Virus record (IMG/VR): IMGVR_UViG_3300029587_000019
Coordinates: 1-40,932 of that record
Direction: 5' to 3' (one strand)
Length of the DNA stretch: 40,932 bases
From: a virus
Made by a program: the position numbers and the translations under genes
Part shown: one piece after another, positions 394 to 22,834 of the stretch
Layout of the letters: every line of letters starts with the position of its first letter
Position numbering within the stretch: the first letter of the stretch is position 1
The notes under the pieces: generated by a model
What the model was told of the DNA's origin: nothing
The model's database searches: none
What the model saw: only the letters and a program-made list of their open reading frames with translations

Positions 394-503
394 TTTCAAA
401 ACCCTCTTGACTATTTTACGGAAATTGCATATACTACCTATGAGGAAACTCATGTTTCCGTTTTATCGAGGTAATCCTCCGCCCGTTCTGGTGGGGGGTT
501 GCC

Positions 504-1982
504 TCATTTTTTATATCGCCGCGCAAAAAGGACAGACCCGTTATGCAACGCAATTATATCTGCATTAAACGATTTGCTTCTTGTTGCTCTCGCATCCAAT
601 ACATCAATTAGTTTTTGCTTATCAATCCCATCGGCGACATCAAAAATCACTCCGCCTTGGTTCCCGTGTATCTGCTTTATCGCTTTGCGCAGAGCGCTAT
701 CTGCGGCTTTTTCTGTGGAAATCGACTTTATTTCCCATTGCTTCCCTTTCCACAGCATGTCTGGCATTTTCATACCTGGCGTCTGCGATTCTTTCAGTAG
801 CACGAACTTCCCGCCGAATTGATCTCTGAGTTGGTTTGCAATTTCGATTTCGGTCTTGTGCCCCTTTATGTGATATCCGTTTTCGTATCGTACCTTACCC
901 ATGCGGGGATTAGCAGAATCTATGTATTTCTTCGTAACATCCTTTTCAGATTTTTCGCTACCCATGTGATATGTGGATAACTGTCTGCCACTGTATCCCT
1001 GCTTCGATGCTTCCCACTGTGCGTATGTCATGTCGGATATAAGCCCGTCGCGTGTTCTCCGCAGGCCGTATGATGTATCTACGCCATCCACGACTGAAAG
1101 CACCGTACAGCGGCAGTTATACACGAGGTAGCCGGGTGCGGAAGTATCGCCGGGAAACATGATCTCGTTACCATCGACTTTAAACGGCTTGTCAATGTCC
1201 ACCGTCTGGCCGTCTAACATGGCGTGGGCGTGTCGCGTTCTGCCGTCCAGCGTCGCAAGCCATTGTTTCTTGAGCTTAATGCCCATCTTCTCCGCCGCCG
1301 CGTAGCTGTCCATGCGTCCGGCGTTCTGCGCTCCGGTCACGGCAGTTCTGGCCGTGCGGATGGCGGAATCCCGGCTCATGGTGGTGATCCGCTTTTGCAA
1401 GTCATCCGCCATGCGCTTGATACTCAACCCCTGTAAGATGGAGCTGGTGACACTGGCCGTAATTTGCCTCTTGCCGTATGCGAGATCGATCCCGCGTTTC
1501 AGTGCTCTGTCCTTTGGATAGTACGGCATCAACCCCGGTTGCTCCACGATTAGGCGTTTCACCGTCTGCTCGTCCCACAGGTCAAAGCCCACGTCCCCAG
1601 CCACACTCTCGATGGTATACGCCGCATAGTTGCGGTTGAGGGAATAGATACCAGGAGTAGCATCATTGGTGTAAGACACCGCCACAGCGTTTGCATCGGT
1701 CACGCGGTGCGCCACCCTGTCACGCATGGCCTGATAGCGTTCCCCACGCCCGATCTGGTTCAGCCGCCATTGCTTATAGTCGGCCTCCGTCCATTCCTTA
1801 CCGTTTTGCACGGTGCCGATCAGAGCTTTCATTTCCTCGTCGCGCTTTTTGAATTGCTCAAAATACGCGTCGATGGTAGCTTGCAGCTCTTTCCCAGCCT
1901 CACGGTACAGCTTCGCAATGCGCCGTTCCAACTTCGCAAGTTCCTTGTCGGTCAGTTGATGCCCAAGATCACTGGTCGCCAT
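504..1982 (-). CDS. Head morphogenesis protein (SPP1 gp7 / Mu F family) fused to a ~150-aa C-terminal PD-(D/E)xK-like domain
   Basis: 492 aa. The MuF-like core ends at YLVYNCRCT. The C-terminal part contains EIEIANQL...MPDMLWKGKQWEIKS (E...PD...ExK). It sits immediately after the portal gene. Confidence 0.8.
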   Translation of the reverse strand: MATSDLGHQLTDKELAKLERRIAKLYREAGKELQATIDAYFEQFKKRDEEMKALIGTVQNGKEWTEADYKQWRLNQIGRGERYQAMRDRVAHRVTDANAVAVSYTNDATPGIYSLNRNYAAYTIESVAGDVGFDLWDEQTVKRLIVEQPGLMPYYPKDRALKRGIDLAYGKRQITASVTSSILQGLSIKRMADDLQKRITTMSRDSAIRTARTAVTGAQNAGRMDSYAAAEKMGIKLKKQWLATLDGRTRHAHAMLDGQTVDIDKPFKVDGNEIMFPGDTSAPGYLVYNCRCTVLSVVDGVDTSYGLRRTRDGLISDMTYAQWEASKQGYSGRQLSTYHMGSEKSEKDVTKKYIDSANPRMGKVRYENGYHIKGHKTEIEIANQLRDQFGGKFVLLKESQTPGMKMPDMLWKGKQWEIKSISTEKAADSALRKAIKQIHGNQGGVIFDVADGIDKQKLIDVLDARATRSKSFNADIIALHNGSVLFARRYKK

Positions 1983-3340: not shown

Positions 3341-4624
3341 TTAATCTCCGCTCACCCCTTGTCTCAGAATGGAAACATAATCAGAGCTGTCGCGTTTGTT
3401 CCACAACCGCTTTACGATGCTGGCCGCGCTGTCCGGCGCGTCATCATGCTCCACGTTCTCGTTGTAATCGCAAATCTGGTCGATATACGCATCATCCGTC
3501 CCGGCCACAAAAACCACATTGCGCCATTCCGCCTTGAGATAGCTTGTGATTTTAAGGGATTTGTTCATGCTTTCGTGATAGGTAACGGCCCGTTCCCCCT
3601 TCGCGCGCAACGCCTTTGCCAGATAGCCCTTGTCGGCGTTGGTCTCGCAGTAAATCACCCCAGCATTGAAAGACTTCCGAAGCCGGATGATCTCATCCAT
3701 GCAATCGTCCACATGCTTGTGCCAAAGCCGCCCATAGAGGTAATATGTCGTTCCCTTCTTCCGGGCGACCGTAAACGCCGTGTAGTCATCGCCGCCGTAT
3801 GCCGCGTCGATGTGGCAAATGCCCTGCTCTGCAAGGCAAGGCTCCGCGCCCATTTGCGGCGTGTCAAAGATCACATCATCACTGGCAATGTGCCGCAGCT
3901 CGTAGTTTGCTGCAAACAGGGATGACGTCATAGACGATTTAATGGTTTGCAACTCATCCCCGGAGATCAACCCAGTTGAATAGCAATCGTACTTTTCGAT
4001 ATTCGGCATCATGGAAAACGCGTCTTCCTTGTGCCAGGGCGTTCCGGTGTTAAAAATGCGCCCGCCACGATTGCGGATATTCTGTAACTCCTGATAGATC
4101 GTTTTTGTATGGTCTCGCTCTGCGCGGGAAATGCGATCCTGCACGTTTACAATATCGTCCGTAAATATGCGGTCAAAATGCTTGCCGGTCAAGGACCCGT
4201 TCACGCCGCACGCCACAAGCTGGCTCGTGCCCTTGTTGTCCGCTGCCAGATTCGTGGAAATCTCCGTCGCGGATACCGTTGTCAGGATCAGCGGTTTTCC
4301 GTGGATCTTCTCGCACAGTGCCTCCATGTATGGCGATAGCAGCAGATTTCGCACCTGCCGCACAACCTCTTTCACGTCCGCATCCGTTTTTCGCATAAAC
4401 AGCGTTTTGAGATTCGGCAGAAGGACGATGATCTCCGCCAGCGCAATCGAAACGCACGTTGTTTTGTAGCTGCCACGATGCGCCTGCAAGGTTTTGTCCT
4501 CACTACCGCGCACCATATCCTGTATCCATGCGTTGTGCAGCGCGCCCAGCTTATCAAACCCAACGGCATGACCGAACGCAATGGGATTATGTATCAGCAG
4601 TTCCGCCGCTTGTATCCGCGTCAT
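3341..4624 (-). CDS. terL: Terminase large subunit
   Basis: 427 aa. It has a Walker-A-like HRGSYKTT, overlaps the end of terS, and is followed by the portal gene. Confidence 0.9.
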   Translation of the reverse strand: MTRIQAAELLIHNPIAFGHAVGFDKLGALHNAWIQDMVRGSEDKTLQAHRGSYKTTCVSIALAEIIVLLPNLKTLFMRKTDADVKEVVRQVRNLLLSPYMEALCEKIHGKPLILTTVSATEISTNLAADNKGTSQLVACGVNGSLTGKHFDRIFTDDIVNVQDRISRAERDHTKTIYQELQNIRNRGGRIFNTGTPWHKEDAFSMMPNIEKYDCYSTGLISGDELQTIKSSMTSSLFAANYELRHIASDDVIFDTPQMGAEPCLAEQGICHIDAAYGGDDYTAFTVARKKGTTYYLYGRLWHKHVDDCMDEIIRLRKSFNAGVIYCETNADKGYLAKALRAKGERAVTYHESMNKSLKITSYLKAEWRNVVFVAGTDDAYIDQICDYNENVEHDDAPDSAASIVKRLWNKRDSSDYVSILRQGVSGD

Positions 4625-6329: not shown

Positions 6330-6782
6330 TTACTCCACGATCATCCAGTCATCGGCAAGCATATCCGCCTGCGATGCCAGCCAGCCGAGCTGCACGCCGG
6401 ATGTGCCGACAAAAGCAAGCGCTTTGTTACCGATAGCTTCGTGAATGGCGTTGATCACCTCATGCGCAGCATTCTCATAGCTGATGCGCTCCGCAAGCTC
6501 GACATGCTGATTCTTGCCATTCCAACCACGACGGGCAATTCTCTTCCCTTTCTTTGCCGCTTCAATAGCCAAGCCAAAGCTCATGCCGTCGGTGGGGCGG
6601 TACGCTTCCTCGAACACGTCCTTAGGGCTAAAACTCTCGTAGCCGTCCTGGTAACGAACCTTGTACCCCTCTTCCGCAGGCTCCATGCTTCTGGGGATCA
6701 GCTCGTTCGCATCGTAGACCTTGCCACCCTTGCGAATAGCAGGGGCCGCTTCAATGATTTTCGTGCCAATATACTTTTTCAT
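6330..6782 (-). CDS. DUF2829-family protein (Tad2-like candidate anti-Thoeris sponge) with an N-terminal extension
   Basis: 150 aa with MSFGLAIEAAKKGKRIARRGWNGK ... GWLASQADMLADDWMIVE. This is the DUF2829 signature as I recall it. Confidence 0.7.
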   Translation of the reverse strand: MKKYIGTKIIEAAPAIRKGGKVYDANELIPRSMEPAEEGYKVRYQDGYESFSPKDVFEEAYRPTDGMSFGLAIEAAKKGKRIARRGWNGKNQHVELAERISYENAAHEVINAIHEAIGNKALAFVGTSGVQLGWLASQADMLADDWMIVE

Positions 6783-6988: not shown

Positions 6989-7615
6989 GACTTCCTCCTG
7001 TTTTGCTACCAGCCCCCACCCCTTGGCCTTACATAGCAGACTTTACCCGCCCCGCAGTCTCTACCATTACCCCACGCATAAGCGCAAGCCTTCGATTTTG
7101 AGGGGCATACACGCTGTCTCTTCCAGCCGTCAAGATTGGTTTGCATAACCTCCGTGCTCAAAGACACGAGCCGCTATCTGGCACGGCATTGCAGTCCTGC
7201 CCTGCTTTAGCGCTTCAGGGAAAGTCCCCGTCACTCGCTGTGGTCTCCCCTTACGGGGCACCTATGCCGCATATCTCCGCAGTGAGCCGGTCGGCGCTCC
7301 GGCATCTCCAACAATGCGAGTATTTGCGGTCTCGCCTCCGGGCGGCAGATTGCCTTTCTGCCCTCCACTGCGGTACTGCCGTCTAAAACTGCTGCCACCG
7401 TGCGCAATCACAGTGACCTGCTGGAACTTCGGCAGCGTAGTTTGTCCAAATGTCCCCTCTGGGACACATCGTTGAGAGGTGCGAGGGGTCCTATACCCAA
7501 CCGGAATTGCACCGGGGCATCAAGGGCAAGTACCAGTTGCCGGAGATGAGCTGCTTTTACAGGCCGCAGCTTATATATTCTTGGAGCGAGGACGCATCAC
7601 CCGAAACGCTCCCCG
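6989..7615 (-). ncRNA. Candidate large structured non-coding RNA. The class is unverified; the context resembles ROOL/GOLLD. Strand is inferred.
   Basis: No ORF of 60 aa or more on the gene-bearing strand. Many GC-rich hairpins, e.g. GGAGCG...CGCTCC, TGTCCC-agag-GGGACA, CCCC-gtaa-GGGG, GCTGCC...GGCAGC, CCGTGC...GCACGG. Directly 3' of a tRNA-like element. Confidence 0.45.
7001..7026 (-). repeat. 26-nt direct repeat, copy 1 (minus strand CCAAGGGGTGGGGGCTGGTAGCAAAA)
   Basis: Read directly. Followed by CAGGAGG-ATG of ORF 6988. Confidence 0.8.
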
Positions 7616-7618
7616 CCA

Positions 7619-7690
7619 TGGTGCAGACGGCAGGATTTGAACCTGCGCATACCTCCTGGTGCGGTGCTCTGCCTACTGAGCTACGTCTGC
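7619..7690 (-). tRNA. tRNA-like element or pseudo-tRNA with encoded CCA. Acceptor, D and T arms are canonical, but there is no canonical anticodon arm.
   Basis: GCAGACG-TA-GCTC-AGTAGGCA-GAGC-A-[CCGCACCAGGAGGTATGC]-GCAGG-TTCAAAT-CCTGC-CGTCTGC-A-CCA. The central 18 nt contain no U33-type loop and are 3-4 nt too short. Confidence 0.55.
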
Positions 7691-7837
7691 ATACCCCCGG
7701 CATCCGCCGGGGTCAGGAGGAAAGAAAGGATGGATGGAAAGAATGAGGATACGGATATAACCCCGCACCCTCATTCTGACACATATTTTTCTGCGCTTGC
7801 CCCGAATTGGGGGCAAAGACCAATTTTTTTTGCGATA

Positions 7838-8068
7838 CTATAAAGGTTTACTCTCTCGTTCGCCCTCGTCCCATGCAAGCTCATCCAAGCTGACGTGGTA
7901 ATGATTTGCTATCAGCTTCAACTGGCTGAGAGCCGGTTCGTTTTCCCCGGTTTCGTACTTCCGTAGCGTATCATGCCCGATCCCAATCAGCTCCGCTTTC
8001 ACTCTCATGCTTTTAGCAGGCCGCTCAGATTCCCTTAATTTCCGCAGCCGTTCCGGGAAGGTACTCAC
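7838..8068 (-). CDS. XRE-family HTH regulator
   Basis: 76 aa with LRKLRESERPAKSMRVKAELIGIGHDTLRKYETGENEP. Confidence 0.75.
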   Translation of the reverse strand: MSTFPERLRKLRESERPAKSMRVKAELIGIGHDTLRKYETGENEPALSQLKLIANHYHVSLDELAWDEGERESKPL

Positions 8069-21057: not shown

Positions 21058-21492
21058 ATGACAATTCAGGAAGTTTGTAAGGCGAAACGTAACGCTTTGG
21101 GTATGACCATTCAGGACATAGCTGAAGCATCGGGAATTCCGCCGTCTACCGTCAACAATTTCTTTACCCATGCTTCCAAGGCCCCCTATATCTCCACGGT
21201 TGGGCCAATATGCGCCGTCCTTGGCGTGTCGCTGGATGAATTTTACGGCATCGGAGATCATCTGACGGCCAGTGAGGAAACGTTGCAAGCGGAAAAGGAC
21301 GGACTAGAACACCGCCTTGAGAATAAGCGGCAGACCATCGGCCTGATGGACACAGAACTGTGCAATCTTTGGCACTCCGTGAAGCTATACAGGTGGATCA
21401 TACTCGGTTTGTCACTATTGATCATCGGGCTTTTTGCCTGGTGCGTTTGGGTTGACATCCATTGTGCTAACTATGGATTTTGGAGGGGATAA
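21058..21492 (+). CDS. Membrane-anchored XRE-family HTH protein
   Basis: 144 aa. N-terminal HTH (LGMTIQDIAEASGIPPSTVNNF), C-terminal TM (WIILGLSLLIIGLFAWCVWV). RBS AAGGAGG. Confidence 0.7.
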   Translation: MTIQEVCKAKRNALGMTIQDIAEASGIPPSTVNNFFTHASKAPYISTVGPICAVLGVSLDEFYGIGDHLTASEETLQAEKDGLEHRLENKRQTIGLMDTELCNLWHSVKLYRWIILGLSLLIIGLFAWCVWVDIHCANYGFWRG

Positions 21493-21493
21493 C

Positions 21494-22834
21494 ATGTGCC
21501 AAAAAATAGTGGTCACTCTACCAAATAATCTACGCATCCGTGTAGCACTGTACATCAGGGTATCGACCGAAGAACAGGCGAAGCACGGCCTGTCCCTGGC
21601 AGACCAGCGGGAGGCTCTGATTGCATATGCCGCCGCACACGGCATGGAGGTTGTGGGCATTTACGAGGACGCCGGAATCAGCGCCAGAAAGCCGTATAAA
21701 AAGCGTCCGGCCTTGATGCGCCTGCTTGATGATTGCCGCGCCGGGAAAATCGACACCATCCTTTTTGTCAAGCTGGATAGGTGGTTTCGGAATGTGGCGG
21801 GGTACTACGCCGTGCAAGAGGTTCTCGACAAAAATCATGTGGATTGGCAGGCCATCAGAGAGGACTACGAAACGCGGACTGCATCAGGGCGATTGAAGGT
21901 CAATATTATGTTGTCGGTAGCGCAGGACGAAGCTGACCGCACATCGGAGCGCATTAAGGCCATCAACGAGGGCAAGAGGGCAAAGGGCCAGCCCACCAAC
22001 GGGAAAACTCCTATCGGAATCTGCGTGAAGAACCGGCGCTACGCCATTGATGAAGAAACCGCAGATGCGGCGCGAGATATGTTCCCAGCCTTTATACGGC
22101 TGCAAAGCATCCTTGCGCTAAGGCGGTATATGGCAACGGAGTGGGGGATCAAACGCTCGTACAACAAATACAAGGATGCGTTGAAAAGCCGCCTGTACTT
22201 AGGTGAGGCGTTCGGCGTGGAAAACGCATTGCCTGCACTTGTCGATCAAGAAACCTTTGACCTTGCTGGGAAAATCTTGGAACGGCGAAGCCAGCGGAAC
22301 GCCAGTGCGGATCGAATATATTTGTTTACCGGAATTCTCCGTTGCCGGGAGTGCGGTAGAAATATGCAGCCGGAGACTGTAAAGCAGGTGTACAAGTACT
22401 ACCGATGCAGAACGCACACACTTGATCCAGCCGACTGCCCGCACATCCTCAGAATCCGAGAAGATGTGCTTGAGGATTACCTTCTGCGGGAATTTGAGGG
22501 GATCGCAAAAAAGTATTACTCCAAATCAAAAACCGCAGAAAAAAAGCAGCCCAAAACGGCGGAGCAAATCAAGCGGAAAATGCAAAAACTGAAAGACCTG
22601 TATCTGTCGGATTTGATTGAAATCGAAGAATACAAAAAAGACTATACGGAATTGAAACAGCAGCTCGCGGCAATAAACCCGGAGCCTATAAAAGAATTTG
22701 ACCTTGAAACATTACGGCGAGAGTTGAAGGAATATCCTGATTTAGACCGGCAGGCAAAAAAGGAATTTTGGGTACGCACAATCCAGCGCATCGACGCAGA
22801 CAATGACGGTGCGTTTTTTGTAACGCCAAGTTAG
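21494..22834 (+). CDS. int: Large serine recombinase (integrase)
   Basis: 446 aa with RVALYIRVSTEEQ (catalytic Ser motif), recombinase and zinc-ribbon parts (CRECG...C...C), and a C-terminal coiled coil. Confidence 0.9.
   Translation: MCQKIVVTLPNNLRIRVALYIRVSTEEQAKHGLSLADQREALIAYAAAHGMEVVGIYEDAGISARKPYKKRPALMRLLDDCRAGKIDTILFVKLDRWFRNVAGYYAVQEVLDKNHVDWQAIREDYETRTASGRLKVNIMLSVAQDEADRTSERIKAINEGKRAKGQPTNGKTPIGICVKNRRYAIDEETADAARDMFPAFIRLQSILALRRYMATEWGIKRSYNKYKDALKSRLYLGEAFGVENALPALVDQETFDLAGKILERRSQRNASADRIYLFTGILRCRECGRNMQPETVKQVYKYYRCRTHTLDPADCPHILRIREDVLEDYLLREFEGIAKKYYSKSKTAEKKQPKTAEQIKRKMQKLKDLYLSDLIEIEEYKKDYTELKQQLAAINPEPIKEFDLETLRRELKEYPDLDRQAKKEFWVRTIQRIDADNDGAFFVTPS

What the first reader, a model, noticed from the sequence alone, without database searches (positions are those of the whole stretch)
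7619..7690. tRNA-like element with perfect acceptor, D and T arms and encoded CCA, but no canonical anticodon arm
The minus strand reads GCAGACG TA GCTC AGTAGGCA GAGC A [CCGCACCAGGAGGTATGC] GCAGG TTCAAAT CCTGC CGTCTGC A CCA. The 7-bp acceptor stem, the D arm (with GG) and the T arm (TTCAAAT) are textbook. The 18 central nt are 3-4 nt shorter than an anticodon arm plus variable loop. They contain no U at the U33 position, and at best form a 4-bp CGCA/TGCG stem with a 10-nt loop. That loop contains AGGAGGT-ATG. The element therefore looks like a scaffold recognisable by RNase P, RNase Z or the CCA-adding enzyme rather than a decoding tRNA. It may be a processing signal that defines the 5' end of the downstream structured RNA, as with tRNA-like punctuation. 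It may also be a decayed tRNA, or a decoy for tRNA-targeting defences (anticodon nucleases).
Basis: seen in the sequence. Interest (0 to 1): 0.65.

Follow-up and report, generated by a model that had tools for sequence, protein, structure and literature searches.

The report
Phage tRNA mimic lacking anticodon arm
A gut-bacterial virus carries a conserved gene for an RNA that has the shape of a transfer RNA but an "anticodon arm" too short to read codons, so it is probably a tRNA look-alike used for something other than translation, possibly against host defences that attack tRNAs.

Summary
Window 7619-7690 (minus strand) is a 72-nt tRNA-shaped gene with perfect acceptor, D and T arms and encoded CCA. 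Its anticodon arm has 13 nt instead of 17. Rfam's tRNA model scores it at 53.5 bits; ARAGORN calls nothing.

It is not a decayed tRNA. I found 118 distinct relatives ("type A") in gut phage, metagenome and Oscillospiraceae contigs. All three arms and the tertiary 15:48 pair covary, and the universal tRNA core bases are invariant. The 13-nt mini-arm (CCG-CNCCNGG-AGG) is the least variable segment. It persists on 15 acceptor-stem variants.

In near-identical phages (upstream HTH protein at least 96 % identical), 76 of 77 carry exactly one family member about 150 nt after that gene. The central domain differs between them (types A, B, C, H and others), like a swappable cassette.

The slot lies in a structured non-coding leader between early and late genes. 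Sister phages keep ordinary tRNAs there.

Best reading: a non-decoding tRNA mimic, cut out by tRNA-processing enzymes, that acts through its mini-arm on an unknown partner. A tRNA-targeting defence nuclease is the leading guess and is unproven. Simple RNase P "punctuation" is the main rival.

The parts
7619..7690 (-). tRNA-like RNA gene ('type A'). Acceptor 7684-7690/7623-7629; D arm 7666-7681; A26 at 7665; 13-nt mini-arm 7652-7664; variable loop 7647-7651; T arm 7630-7646; discriminator 7622; encoded CCA 7619-7621.
   Evidence: Sequence; Rfam tRNA 53.5 bits; ARAGORN negative; covariation over 75 relatives; 118 distinct relatives.
7652..7664 (-). Mini 'anticodon arm' CCG-CACCAGG-AGG. At most 3 stem layers, a 7-nt loop with A at position 33, and the triplet CCA where an anticodon would be. 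It contains a GGAGG run.
   Evidence: Least diverse segment: pi = 0.076 against 0.15-0.21 for the other loops and stems. Identical or nearly identical on 15 acceptor variants. U28-A38 compensatory change in L358 and L395.
7695..7712 (-). GC-rich leader hairpin CCCCGGC-GGAT-GCCGGGG ending 4 nt (GTAT) before the 5' end of the tRNA-like. Probably protects the 3' end of the upstream RNA once RNase P has cut (inferred).
   Evidence: Sequence. The stem is constant and the loop varies (GGAT, AAAT, ATCC, GGAAT, AGAT) across loci. Other leader modules also end in a hairpin.
7741..7776 (-). Hairpin GAATGAGG...CCTCATTC followed by a T-rich tract (7721-7740). Possibly a leaky terminator of the early operon.
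   Evidence: Read from the sequence. The terminator scan did not call it. This is an inference only.
7838..8068 (-). 76-aa XRE-type HTH_3 protein, the last gene of the early block and the conserved upstream neighbour of the tRNA-like.
   Evidence: Pfam HTH_3 E = 4.7e-9. Directly upstream in 39 loci. 76 of 77 HTH-anchored loci have one family member 145-163 nt downstream. A 45 %-identical homologue sits upstream of the L395 element.
7448..7618 (-). Conserved 171-nt module of five hairpins directly 3' of the CCA. Its last hairpin ('U2', about 7451-7470) directly precedes a tRNA-like or a tRNA in other phages.
   Evidence: RNAalifold on 14 homologues: 43 pairs, 4 with compensatory changes. The single-sequence fold is not significant, z = -0.35. 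Module arrangement.
7278..7372 (-). Skipping-rope RNA (Rfam RF02924), an orphan structured RNA in the same non-coding leader.
   Evidence: 45.3 bits against a gathering score of 36.7. Also found next to family members in L001, L004, L077, L349 and L541.
7046..7109 (-). Sub-threshold match to DUF3800-VIII RNA, another orphan motif of the same Weinberg 2017 group.
   Evidence: 36.0 bits against a gathering score of 40.2, E = 1.2e-4.

Best explanation
SHOWN: 7619-7690(-) is a functional, conserved gene for an L-shaped, tRNA-derived RNA that cannot decode. It belongs to a family that fills one fixed slot in temperate siphoviruses of gut Oscillospiraceae. The slot lies about 150 nt after a small XRE-type HTH gene, in the non-coding tRNA/ncRNA cluster between the early genes and the packaging genes. 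The acceptor-T 'top half', the D/T elbow and usually an encoded CCA are kept. The anticodon arm is reduced to 13 nt, and its sequence is the most conserved part of the RNA.

INFERRED: The host's tRNA-maturation enzymes recognise the top half and elbow. RNase P cuts at the 5' end, and the 3' end is trimmed to the encoded CCA or has CCA added. This excises a stable RNA of about 72 nt from the long leader and at the same time makes the ends of the neighbouring RNAs. The mature RNA does not enter translation. It acts in trans as a tRNA mimic, and its mini-arm is the specificity determinant for a partner that normally binds tRNA.

MOST SPECULATIVE STEP: The partner is a tRNA-directed host defence nuclease, or its sensor, which the mimic titrates or blocks. 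The alternative central cassettes (types A to H and more) seen in otherwise near-identical phages would then reflect an arms race.
For: Real and under selection:
- 118 distinct type A sequences.
- 99.9 % of helix cells are paired. 7 pairs show changes on both sides. 0 of 500 shuffles reach the observed values.
- The Levitt 15:48 pair covaries: G:C in 63, A:U in 9.
- The equivalents of U8, A14, G18, G19, A21, G53, T54, T55, C56, A58 and C61 are invariant.
- CCA is encoded in 105 of 118, and the -1 base is T in about 80 %.
- After a tRNA-Asn/type A recombination (the broken chimera L162), four phages carry a fully re-paired acceptor stem.

The mini-arm matters:
- It has the lowest diversity of any segment in a set collected without constraining it: pi = 0.076 against 0.15-0.21.
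- It is unchanged in L163/L166, L349, L358 and L395, where the acceptor and T stems are replaced and the neighbouring HTH protein is only 45 % identical.

One slot with alternative alleles:
- 76 of 77 HTH-anchored loci (HTH at least 96 % identical) have exactly one member. About 57 are type A, 12 type B, 5 type H, 2 type C and 2 a long form of A.
- A second lineage shows type A, D or E, a canonical tRNA-Gln, an empty slot, or a form that keeps only the acceptor, T arm and CCA.

Context:
- The element lies in a phage tRNA cluster beside canonical tRNAs.
- A Tad2-like anti-defence gene lies 0.9 kb downstream in the window.

Literature:
- Phage tRNAs counter PARIS, retron-Eco7 and P2-OLD, and the anticodon arm is the determinant of OLD resistance (PMC11464382, PMC11555353, PMC12445682).
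Against: - There are no expression, processing or binding data. Everything after 'conserved L-shaped non-decoding RNA gene' is inference.
- A decoy would be expected to resemble its target's anticodon arm, and this arm resembles no canonical one.
- In the one tested case, resistance of phage tRNA-Thr to OLD was not by competitive inhibition (PMC12445682, section 40).
- Some family members (types D and H) have degenerate T or D loops, so not all keep the elbow.
- Most loci come from one IMG dataset (3300045988) and are closely related. Covariation counts are therefore not independent events, and part of the arm's conservation could reflect recent ancestry.
- Two of the search patterns fixed arm positions.
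- The Tad2-like neighbour is specific to the window's subgroup. In most relatives the packaging genes follow directly.
Confidence: 0.55

Rival explanations
1. Pure processing punctuation. The element is only an RNase P (and 3'-end) cleavage signal that separates the early mRNA, the structured ncRNAs and the late mRNA, like plant mitochondrial t-elements or MALAT1/mascRNA. The excised RNA itself has no function.
For: - It lies exactly at the early/late junction inside a structured leader.
- Hairpins end 3-12 nt before the 5' end, and the -1 base is mostly T.
- Everything RNase P needs is conserved (acceptor, T arm, elbow, RCCA), while the arm it does not need is shrunken.
- Unrelated phages also carry mini-arm tRNA-likes inside tRNA arrays.
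- L558 keeps only the acceptor, T arm and CCA.
Against: - The dispensable arm is the most conserved segment, and it persists across 15 acceptor variants and at 45 % HTH identity.
- The family member is retained even where canonical tRNAs, which could do the same job, sit beside it.
- There is exactly one per phage, with discrete alternative cassettes.
Confidence: 0.2
2. An unusual but functional decoding tRNA (anticodon CCN, reading NGG codons). Its shortened anticodon stem would make it resistant to defence nucleases that cut the anticodon arm.
For: - In one register the arm has a 7-nt loop with CCN in the anticodon position.
- ARAGORN calls the L087 variant tRNA-Gly(UCC).
- Phage tRNA-Thr resists P2-OLD partly through a shorter anticodon stem and still decodes (PMC12445682).
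Against: - Here 4 nucleotides are missing (13 nt against 17). In the OLD case only one pair is lost within a 17-nt arm.
- U33 is present in 3 of 118.
- Position 36 takes all four bases among near-identical phages that share the same acceptor.
- Decoding tRNAs are described as having anticodon stems of 5 bp, or 6 bp in Sec, Pyl and mt-Ser (PMC7609411).
- ARAGORN rejects it.
Confidence: 0.06
3. An RNase-P-processed antisense regulator, like the C4 RNA of phages P1 and P7. The mini-arm would base-pair with a phage or host RNA, and the cassette types would define specificity groups.
For: - One gene per phage in a regulatory position after an HTH gene, with discrete alleles.
- tRNA-like ends suited to RNase P.
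- The arm's GGAGG run is complementary to CCUCC-type sequences such as the 16S rRNA 3' end (own knowledge).
Against: - No type-specific complementary site lies within -400 to +1500 nt. Observed longest matches equal those of shuffled sequences and have no consistent position.
- The only match to the arm's complement in the whole window is the element's own opposite strand.
- The leader's CCTCCTG also occurs upstream of types B and H, which lack GGAGG.
Confidence: 0.06
4. A decaying tRNA pseudogene or a DNA-level element (an attP remnant or a recombination linker between mosaic modules) with no RNA function.
For: - Flank modules recombine freely around it, and chimeras with the neighbouring tRNA-Asn exist.
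- A 17-nt 'long A' form (L313, L314) suggests a 4-nt deletion origin.
- One relative has lost the element (L289).
Against: - Compensatory changes occur in the acceptor, T stem and Levitt pair, and acceptor pairing was restored after recombination.
- The tertiary core is invariant.
- The integrase is a serine recombinase 14 kb away, and the element is full length, not a 3' fragment.
Confidence: 0.05

Closest known systems
Phage-encoded counter-defence tRNAs (T5 tRNA-Lys against PARIS, PMC11464382; phage tRNA-Tyr against retron-Eco7, PMC11555353; phage tRNA-Thr against P2-OLD, PMC12445682; anticodon-loop variants in mycobacteriophage tRNAs, PMC10264068)
   Same: It is encoded in a phage tRNA cluster. 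The anticodon arm is the part that diversifies while the rest of the cloverleaf is kept. In the OLD case a shortened anticodon stem contributes to resistance.
   Different: Those tRNAs keep a 17-nt arm with a normal 7-nt loop and replace the cleaved host tRNA in decoding. This RNA lacks 4 nt of the arm and lacks U33, so it cannot replace anything in translation. If it counters defence at all, it must do so as a mimic or inhibitor, which has not been described.
mascRNA/menRNA (PMC11693755) and, from my own knowledge, the MHV68 TMER viral tRNA-like RNAs
   Same: They are non-aminoacylated tRNA look-alikes with an acceptor, T arm and elbow. RNase P and the 3' machinery excise them from a longer transcript, they carry CCA, and their excision also makes the end of the neighbouring RNA.
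   Different: Those are eukaryotic or herpesviral. mascRNA has a reduced D arm and a longer anticodon-equivalent stem with a compact loop. There is no sequence or model homology: no Rfam match other than tRNA at E up to 1. Here the D arm and tertiary core are fully canonical, and the arm is a conserved 13-mer.
Plant mitochondrial t-elements (PMC1920247) and RNase P 'punctuation' in general
   Same: tRNA-like structures between genes whose cleavage defines mRNA 5' and 3' ends. The position at a transcript junction, with hairpins just upstream, fits.
   Different: t-elements have no conserved non-scaffold sequence. Here the part irrelevant to cleavage is the most conserved, and it exists as alternative cassettes.
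C4 antisense RNA of phages P1 and P7 (own knowledge: Hartmann et al., PNAS 1995)
   Same: A small regulatory RNA of a temperate phage, matured by RNase P from a longer transcript. Its loops carry the specificity that differs between related phages.
   Different: C4 is not a cloverleaf and pairs with nearby targets in its own operon. No complementary target was found here.
Bacterial Y RNA YrlA tRNA-like domain (bioRxiv 10.1101/312249)
   Same: A bacterial or phage non-coding RNA that mimics the tRNA D/T elbow.
   Different: YrlA's mimic is embedded in a Y RNA with a Ro60-binding stem and is encoded next to rsr. Here the RNA is a free-standing cloverleaf with CCA, no Y-RNA model matches, and no Ro60-like gene was seen among the genes annotated.
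Irregular allo-tRNA-like polycistrons (reviewed in PMC7609411)
   Same: Clusters of tRNA-shaped genes with aberrant arms that were inactive in translation. The review suggests they are linked to mobile elements or toxin-antitoxin systems.
   Different: Those have 8/4 or 9/3 acceptor-T geometry and long variable arms. This family has the canonical 7/5 geometry and a shortened anticodon arm.

Membership tests
Canonical decoding tRNA (Rfam RF00005) | 7-bp acceptor stem, discriminator and 3' CCA | tested here: met
   7 of 7 pairs, A73 and encoded CCA. The acceptor is paired in 100 % of cells across 75 relatives, with 5 pairs changed on both sides.
Canonical decoding tRNA (Rfam RF00005) | D arm with G18 G19, T arm with a T-Psi-C-R-A loop, and tertiary core including the R15:Y48 Levitt pair | tested here: met
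   The core bases are invariant. The Levitt pair is G:C in 63, A:U in 9 and other in 3.
Canonical decoding tRNA (Rfam RF00005) | Score at or above the family's gathering threshold | tested here: met
   53.5 bits against 29.
Canonical decoding tRNA (Rfam RF00005) | 5-bp (rarely 6-bp) anticodon stem with a 7-nt loop, U33 and a purine at 37 | tested here: not met
   The arm is 13 nt with at most 3 stem layers. Position 33 is A in the window and U in only 3 of 118 relatives. ARAGORN gives no call. The reference rule for stem length is from PMC7609411.
Canonical decoding tRNA (Rfam RF00005) | Aminoacylation and codon reading | not testable with these tools
   Needs acid-gel or periodate tRNA-seq and a translation assay.
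tRNA-like ncRNAs excised by tRNA-processing enzymes (mascRNA/menRNA, TMER vtRNA, t-elements) | Acceptor-T minihelix and D/T elbow, which RNase P and the 3'-end enzymes recognise | tested here: met
   The structural features are present and conserved. The -1 base is T in about 80 % and RCCA is present in 89 %.
tRNA-like ncRNAs excised by tRNA-processing enzymes (mascRNA/menRNA, TMER vtRNA, t-elements) | Actual cleavage by RNase P, and a stable product that is not aminoacylated | not testable with these tools
   No transcript data are available.
tRNA-like ncRNAs excised by tRNA-processing enzymes (mascRNA/menRNA, TMER vtRNA, t-elements) | Homology to the curated mascRNA-menRNA or another tRNA-like Rfam family | tested here: not met
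   At E up to 1, only tRNA matches the element on its own (minus) strand. The resemblance is therefore an analogy, not shared family membership.
Phage counter-defence tRNAs | Encoded by a phage among its tRNA genes, with a variant anticodon arm | tested here: met
   Sister phages have canonical tRNAs in the same cluster. The arm is the variable cassette.
Phage counter-defence tRNAs | Able to decode, so as to replace the cleaved host tRNA | tested here: not met
   The arm geometry and lack of U33 are incompatible with decoding (see above). This is inferred from the sequence, not assayed.
attP / partial tRNA gene left by integration | A 3' fragment of a host tRNA next to a tyrosine integrase | tested here: not met
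   The cloverleaf is full length. The only integrase is a large serine recombinase at 21434-22834(+), 14 kb away.
Bacterial Y RNA (YrlA) | Y-RNA model match and an adjacent Ro60 (rsr) gene | tested here: not met
   There is no Y-RNA hit at gathering or at E up to 1. No Ro60-like product was seen among the genes annotated.

The most novel reading that the evidence does not exclude
Gut Oscillospiraceae phages carry a dedicated single-copy locus for anticodon-less tRNA mimics. Their miniature, interchangeable central cassettes (types A to H and more) would be RNA anti-defence determinants. Each cassette would inhibit or decoy a different tRNA-directed immune nuclease or sensor, of the PARIS/OLD Toprim, PrrC/RloC, Schlafen, Cas12a3 or PBECR-like kinds. 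That would be an RNA-based counterpart of protein anti-defence genes. The wider occurrence of mini-arm tRNA-likes in unrelated phage tRNA arrays would then reflect the same strategy.
Probability: 0.22. Interest if true: 0.85.

Novelty: new variant of a known kind. Interest (0 to 1): 0.62.

Why it matters
tRNAs have recently emerged as a main battlefield between phages and bacterial immunity, and phage tRNA genes are now read as counter-measures. This family would add a different solution: an RNA that keeps the tRNA body but gives up decoding. Its short conserved arm is swapped between otherwise identical phages.

If it is a mimic acting on a host factor, it defines a new class of phage non-coding effectors. 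It would also be a simple, abundant handle (a 72-nt RNA in more than 100 gut phage genomes) for finding tRNA-targeting systems in Oscillospiraceae that are hard to culture.

Even on the modest reading (RNase P punctuation), it shows how phage early and late transcripts and orphan RNAs such as skipping-rope are matured.

It also matters for annotation. ARAGORN misses these genes, while the Rfam tRNA model calls them plain tRNA.

Tried and rejected
- **SD plus ATG small ORF inside the element.** Rejected. The spacing is 1 nt, the ATG lies in the variable loop, it is absent in some variants and the frame shifts between variants.
- **Antisense 38-aa ORF at 7727-7843(+), with AGGAGG and a T8 terminator-like hairpin.** Rejected. 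It is truncated to 8 aa in about 19 loci, and its changes are mostly non-synonymous.
- **attP remnant.** Rejected. The integrase is a serine recombinase 14 kb away.
- **Pairing of the arm with the upstream CCTCCTG leader.** Rejected. The same leader precedes types B and H, and it does not covary with the arm.
- **Cis or nearby antisense target.** None found beyond chance.
- **Isolated-phage database (INPHARED).** There is no homologue of the element itself. The only matches (MT835513, MT836871, MT835520) are unannotated records from human faecal samples that cover flanks or a T-arm fragment.
- **Single-sequence fold of the 3' flank.** Not significant, z = -0.35. Only the alignment revealed conserved hairpins.
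- **Supplement of Weinberg 2017, which names the protein partner of skipping-rope.** Not held in the library.
- **Profile search with two HTH proteins.** It returned only the same close relatives, so that scan was wasted. A query with the L395 protein alone worked.
- **Promoter scan.** No sigma-70-like promoter lies between 6500 and 8500, so the transcription start remains unknown.
- **Deciding the arm's pairing register.** Unresolved.
- **Literature.** Searches found no earlier description of phage tRNA-likes with a truncated anticodon arm.
Full report
**1. Observation**

The minus strand of 7619-7690 reads GCAGACG TA GCTC AGTAGGCA GAGC A CCGCACCAGGAGGTATGC GCAGG TTCAAAT CCTGC CGTCTGC A CCA, exactly as reported. 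ARAGORN finds no tRNA in the whole 40.9-kb window. The Rfam tRNA model matches end to end at 53.5 bits (gathering score 29, E = 7e-9). It can align only 2 bp plus 9 nt where the anticodon arm should be. The sequence folds better than all 200 shuffles, z = -3.3. The acceptor, D and T arms are perfect, CCA is encoded, and the 18 central nucleotides are 3-4 short of an anticodon arm plus variable loop.

**2. Context**

The window is a complete, circularly permuted temperate siphovirus genome.
- A large serine integrase (21434-22834) and a repressor-like gene lie on the + strand.
- Early genes run on the minus strand from about 18.6 kb to 8 kb: exonuclease, NinB, replication initiator, DNA methyltransferase and others. 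The block ends with a 76-aa XRE-type HTH_3 gene (7838-8068).
- A gap of about 850 nt without genes follows (7840-6990).
- Then come a 69-aa ORF, a Tad2-like gene, a ParB/methyltransferase-like gene, the small and large terminase, portal and head genes. The order wraps around to HNH endonuclease, major head, major tail, tape measure and tail fibre.

The tRNA-like lies in that gap. The gap also holds a skipping-rope RNA (7278-7372, 45.3 bits) and a sub-threshold DUF3800-VIII RNA match (7046-7109). No sigma-70-type promoter is predicted there. The hosts are gut Oscillospiraceae: the same element occurs in Dysosmobacter, Oscillospiraceae and Clostridia MAG contigs.

**3. A large family under selection**

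Pattern scans of viral contigs, genomes and metagenomes and protein-anchored fetches yielded 118 distinct sequences with the window's core, which I call type A. On an alignment of 75 of them:
- 99.9 % of helix cells are paired.
- Seven pairs changed on both sides. T-stem positions 2 and 3 switch C-G/U-A and U-A/A-U in 14 and 30 sequences.
- No shuffle out of 500 reaches the observed values, and shifting the 3' partners by one to three columns lowers pairing to between 32 % and 45 %.
- The tertiary Levitt pair covaries: G15:C48 in 63, A15:U48 in 9 and 3 exceptions.
- The universal tRNA core positions are invariant.
- CCA is encoded in 105 of 118. The base before the 5' end is T in about 80 % of loci.

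In L049 a canonical tRNA-Asn lies just upstream of type A. L162 is a fusion of the two with a broken acceptor. L164, L168, L169 and L209 are fusions in which both acceptor strands are Asn-like and pair perfectly. Selection therefore acts on the RNA's shape. This rules out a decaying pseudogene.

Caveats: most loci come from one IMG dataset and are close relatives, so the counts are not independent events. The three GGTTTCG acceptors reflect recombination rather than point substitutions.

**4. The mini-arm**

The Levitt covariation fixes the last central nucleotide as position 48. This leaves a 5-nt variable loop and 13 nt for the arm: C27 C28 G29 | C N C C N G G | A G G.

Two registers are possible, and each has at most 3 pairs.
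- The tRNA-like register is C27-G39, Y28-R38 and G29.A37. It is favoured by U28-A38 in L358 and L395, with U28.G38 in L116 as an intermediate.
- ViennaRNA and RNAalifold prefer R31-U40, C32-G39 and C33-G38 with an AGGA loop.
- The pair counts do not decide between them.

Under either register the arm is 4 nt shorter than any anticodon arm. U33 is present in only 3 of 118 sequences, and "position 36" takes all four bases. Decoding tRNAs are described as having anticodon stems of 5 bp, or 6 bp in Sec, Pyl and mt-Ser (PMC7609411). I therefore infer that the RNA does not decode.

The arm is nevertheless the most conserved segment. In the set found through the acceptor sequence alone, its diversity is 0.076. 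The T stem, T loop, D loop and variable loop range from 0.15 to 0.21, and the flanks reach 0.30. The arm also persists on 15 acceptor-stem variants, including GCAAGCG, GGGTCCA, GCTTGTG and GCCACGG, in phages whose neighbouring HTH protein is only 45 % identical.

**5. One slot, many cassettes**

The 14-mer shared by the acceptor and D arm retrieved about 80 phage tRNA-likes with the same acceptor stem but at least eight unrelated central domains (types A to H). Only three hits were ordinary tRNAs.

I then anchored on the upstream HTH protein (at least 96 % identical). Of 77 loci with enough downstream DNA, 76 carry exactly one family member 145-163 nt after the HTH stop. About 57 are type A, 12 type B, 5 type H, 2 type C and 2 a 17-nt "long A" form. 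One locus has a deletion.

In a second lineage the same slot holds one of: type A, type D, type E, a new 33-nt insert type, a canonical tRNA-Gln, nothing, or an RNA that keeps only the acceptor, T arm and CCA.

Flanks are modular as well. About six kinds of 5' leader, most ending in a hairpin, combine with about ten kinds of 3' flank. The downstream genes are alternative packaging modules. Sister phages have canonical tRNAs (Asn, Gly, Gln, Thr, Met, Ser, Trp) and other aberrant tRNA-likes in the same cluster. Unrelated large phages also carry mini-arm tRNA-likes inside tRNA arrays.

**6. What it is not**

- It is not a start site for a peptide. The SD-like run is 1 nt from an ATG that is not conserved and whose reading frame shifts between variants.
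- The region is not the shadow of an antisense gene. That ORF is broken in about 19 loci.
- It is not an attP remnant. The integrase is a serine recombinase 14 kb away.
- It is not a cis-antisense RNA. No complementary target exceeds chance nearby or anywhere in the window.

**7. How it most likely works**

*Shown:* this is a conserved, L-shaped, non-decoding RNA gene at the early/late junction, embedded in a structured leader. A conserved hairpin ends 4 nt upstream of it. A conserved five-hairpin module lies directly downstream.

*Inferred from established knowledge of bacterial tRNA maturation:* RNase P recognises the acceptor-T helix, the elbow and RCCA, and it prefers U at -1. The RNA is therefore probably excised from the leader by RNase P and 3' trimming. 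This would also create a hairpin-protected 3' end on the early transcript and free the downstream RNAs.

The arm is dispensable for processing, yet it is the most conserved and most cassette-like part. I therefore think the mature RNA acts in trans through the arm on a partner that binds tRNA.

The leading candidate, with no direct evidence, is a tRNA-directed defence nuclease or its sensor. Phage tRNAs are known to counter PARIS, retron-Eco7 and P2-OLD. For OLD the anticodon arm decides sensitivity (PMC11464382, PMC11555353, PMC12445682). Cas12a3 attacks the CCA tail (PMC12851939). A Tad2-like anti-defence gene lies 0.9 kb away in the window.

Against this idea, the arm resembles no real anticodon arm, and OLD resistance was not competitive (PMC12445682). 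Pure punctuation remains the main rival.

**8. Comparison and novelty**

The closest functional analogues are these:
- mascRNA/menRNA and herpesviral TMER tRNA-likes, which are excised by tRNA enzymes, carry CCA and are not charged;
- plant mitochondrial t-elements;
- the RNase-P-matured C4 RNA of phages P1 and P7.

The closest biological relatives are phage counter-defence tRNAs. The element passes the Rfam tRNA threshold but fails the defining anticodon-arm feature, so I do not file it as a tRNA. It matches no other curated RNA family on its own strand. I found no earlier description of phage tRNA-likes with a truncated, conserved, exchangeable anticodon arm. I rate it a new variant of a known kind, the tRNA-like non-coding RNAs.

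**9. Limits**

- There are no expression or biochemical data.
- The relatives are closely related and come mainly from one dataset.
- Two scans fixed arm positions.
- The pairing register of the arm is unresolved.
- The partner is unknown.

Noticed in passing
window 7278-7372 (-); also L001 2510-2604, L004 11104-11198, L077 1982-2076, L349 4477-4545, L541 1603-1697: Skipping-rope RNA (RF02924), an orphan motif, recurs in the same non-coding leader as the tRNA-like in several lineages. In L349 it lies directly after a PBECR3 nuclease gene (4063-4431; the Barnase/EndoU/colicin E5-D/RelE-like family) and before a Peptidase_M78 gene. That hints at an RNA-nuclease pairing.
   Followed up: partly
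window 7046-7109 (-): Sub-threshold match to DUF3800-VIII RNA (36.0 bits, gathering score 40.2, E = 1.2e-4). Weinberg 2017 links the DUF3800 motifs and skipping-rope through their associated genes (PMC5737381).
   Followed up: no
window 6330-6782 (-): 150-aa protein with a C-terminal Tad2-like (Thoeris anti-defence 2, PF11195) domain, E = 3.5e-20, just downstream of the ncRNA leader. It is present in 11 of the 72 related loci whose neighbouring ORFs were clustered.
   Followed up: partly
L403 (contig ERZ826242.296, 76.8 kb), L415, L424: Large CRISPR arrays with 50 to more than 100 repeats (GTCGCCCCCCTCGCGGGGGGCGTGGATTGAAAT). One spacer, TAGTCGGTAGAGCACCGCGCCGGGAGGTATGTCGTTG, matches the type A tRNA-like from the D loop to the T stem. 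Hosts therefore target this conserved element.
   Followed up: partly
L349 2951-3171 (+): Strong FuFi-1 RNA match (129.8 bits), about 1 kb from the L349 type A element. It is another 'motif with a 3' terminator' from the same 2017 survey.
   Followed up: no
L583, L596 and L599 at 913-979 (-); L590 at 475-541 (-): Type II hammerhead ribozymes (44.6 bits) upstream of distant homologues of the HTH gene (49 % identity to the L395 protein). These phages have no tRNA-like after the HTH gene.
   Followed up: no
L030 4065-4147; L035 3332-3406; L048 2068-2144 (the same sequence is in L054 and L030); L007, L008, L013, L015, L020 (coordinates): Other aberrant tRNA-likes in phage tRNA arrays. In some, the anticodon arm is replaced by an 8-bp stem with a 6-nt loop, by a 6-bp stem with a UAAG tetraloop, or reduced to 7-12 nt. 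There is also a 77-nt 'Gly-UCC' with an odd D-arm and acceptor geometry. Mini-arm or odd-arm tRNA-likes appear widespread in phages.
   Followed up: partly
L006 (minus strand) about 7258-7338 and 7008-7079: The only phage seen with two family members. A type H element comes first, then the same five-hairpin module as in the window, then a type A element.
   Followed up: yes
window 7796-7818, with an A8 run at 7824-7831 (minus-strand reading): The hairpin CTTTGCCCC-AATT-CGGGGCAAG just after the HTH stop is followed by T8 only when read on the + strand. It looks like a terminator for antisense (+ strand) transcription running into the HTH gene.
   Followed up: no
L162 1-25: The contig begins with a Nextera transposase adapter (…AGATGTGTATAAGAGACAG), so this public viral contig carries untrimmed adapter sequence. 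The chimeric tRNA-Asn/type A junction is internal and is also seen in L391.
   Followed up: no
L313 and L314 at 2875-2947: A 'long A' variant with a 17-nt arm (CCGCA-CCAGATG-GGCGG) that still lacks U33. It is either the ancestor of type A before a 4-nt deletion or an insertion derivative.
   Followed up: no
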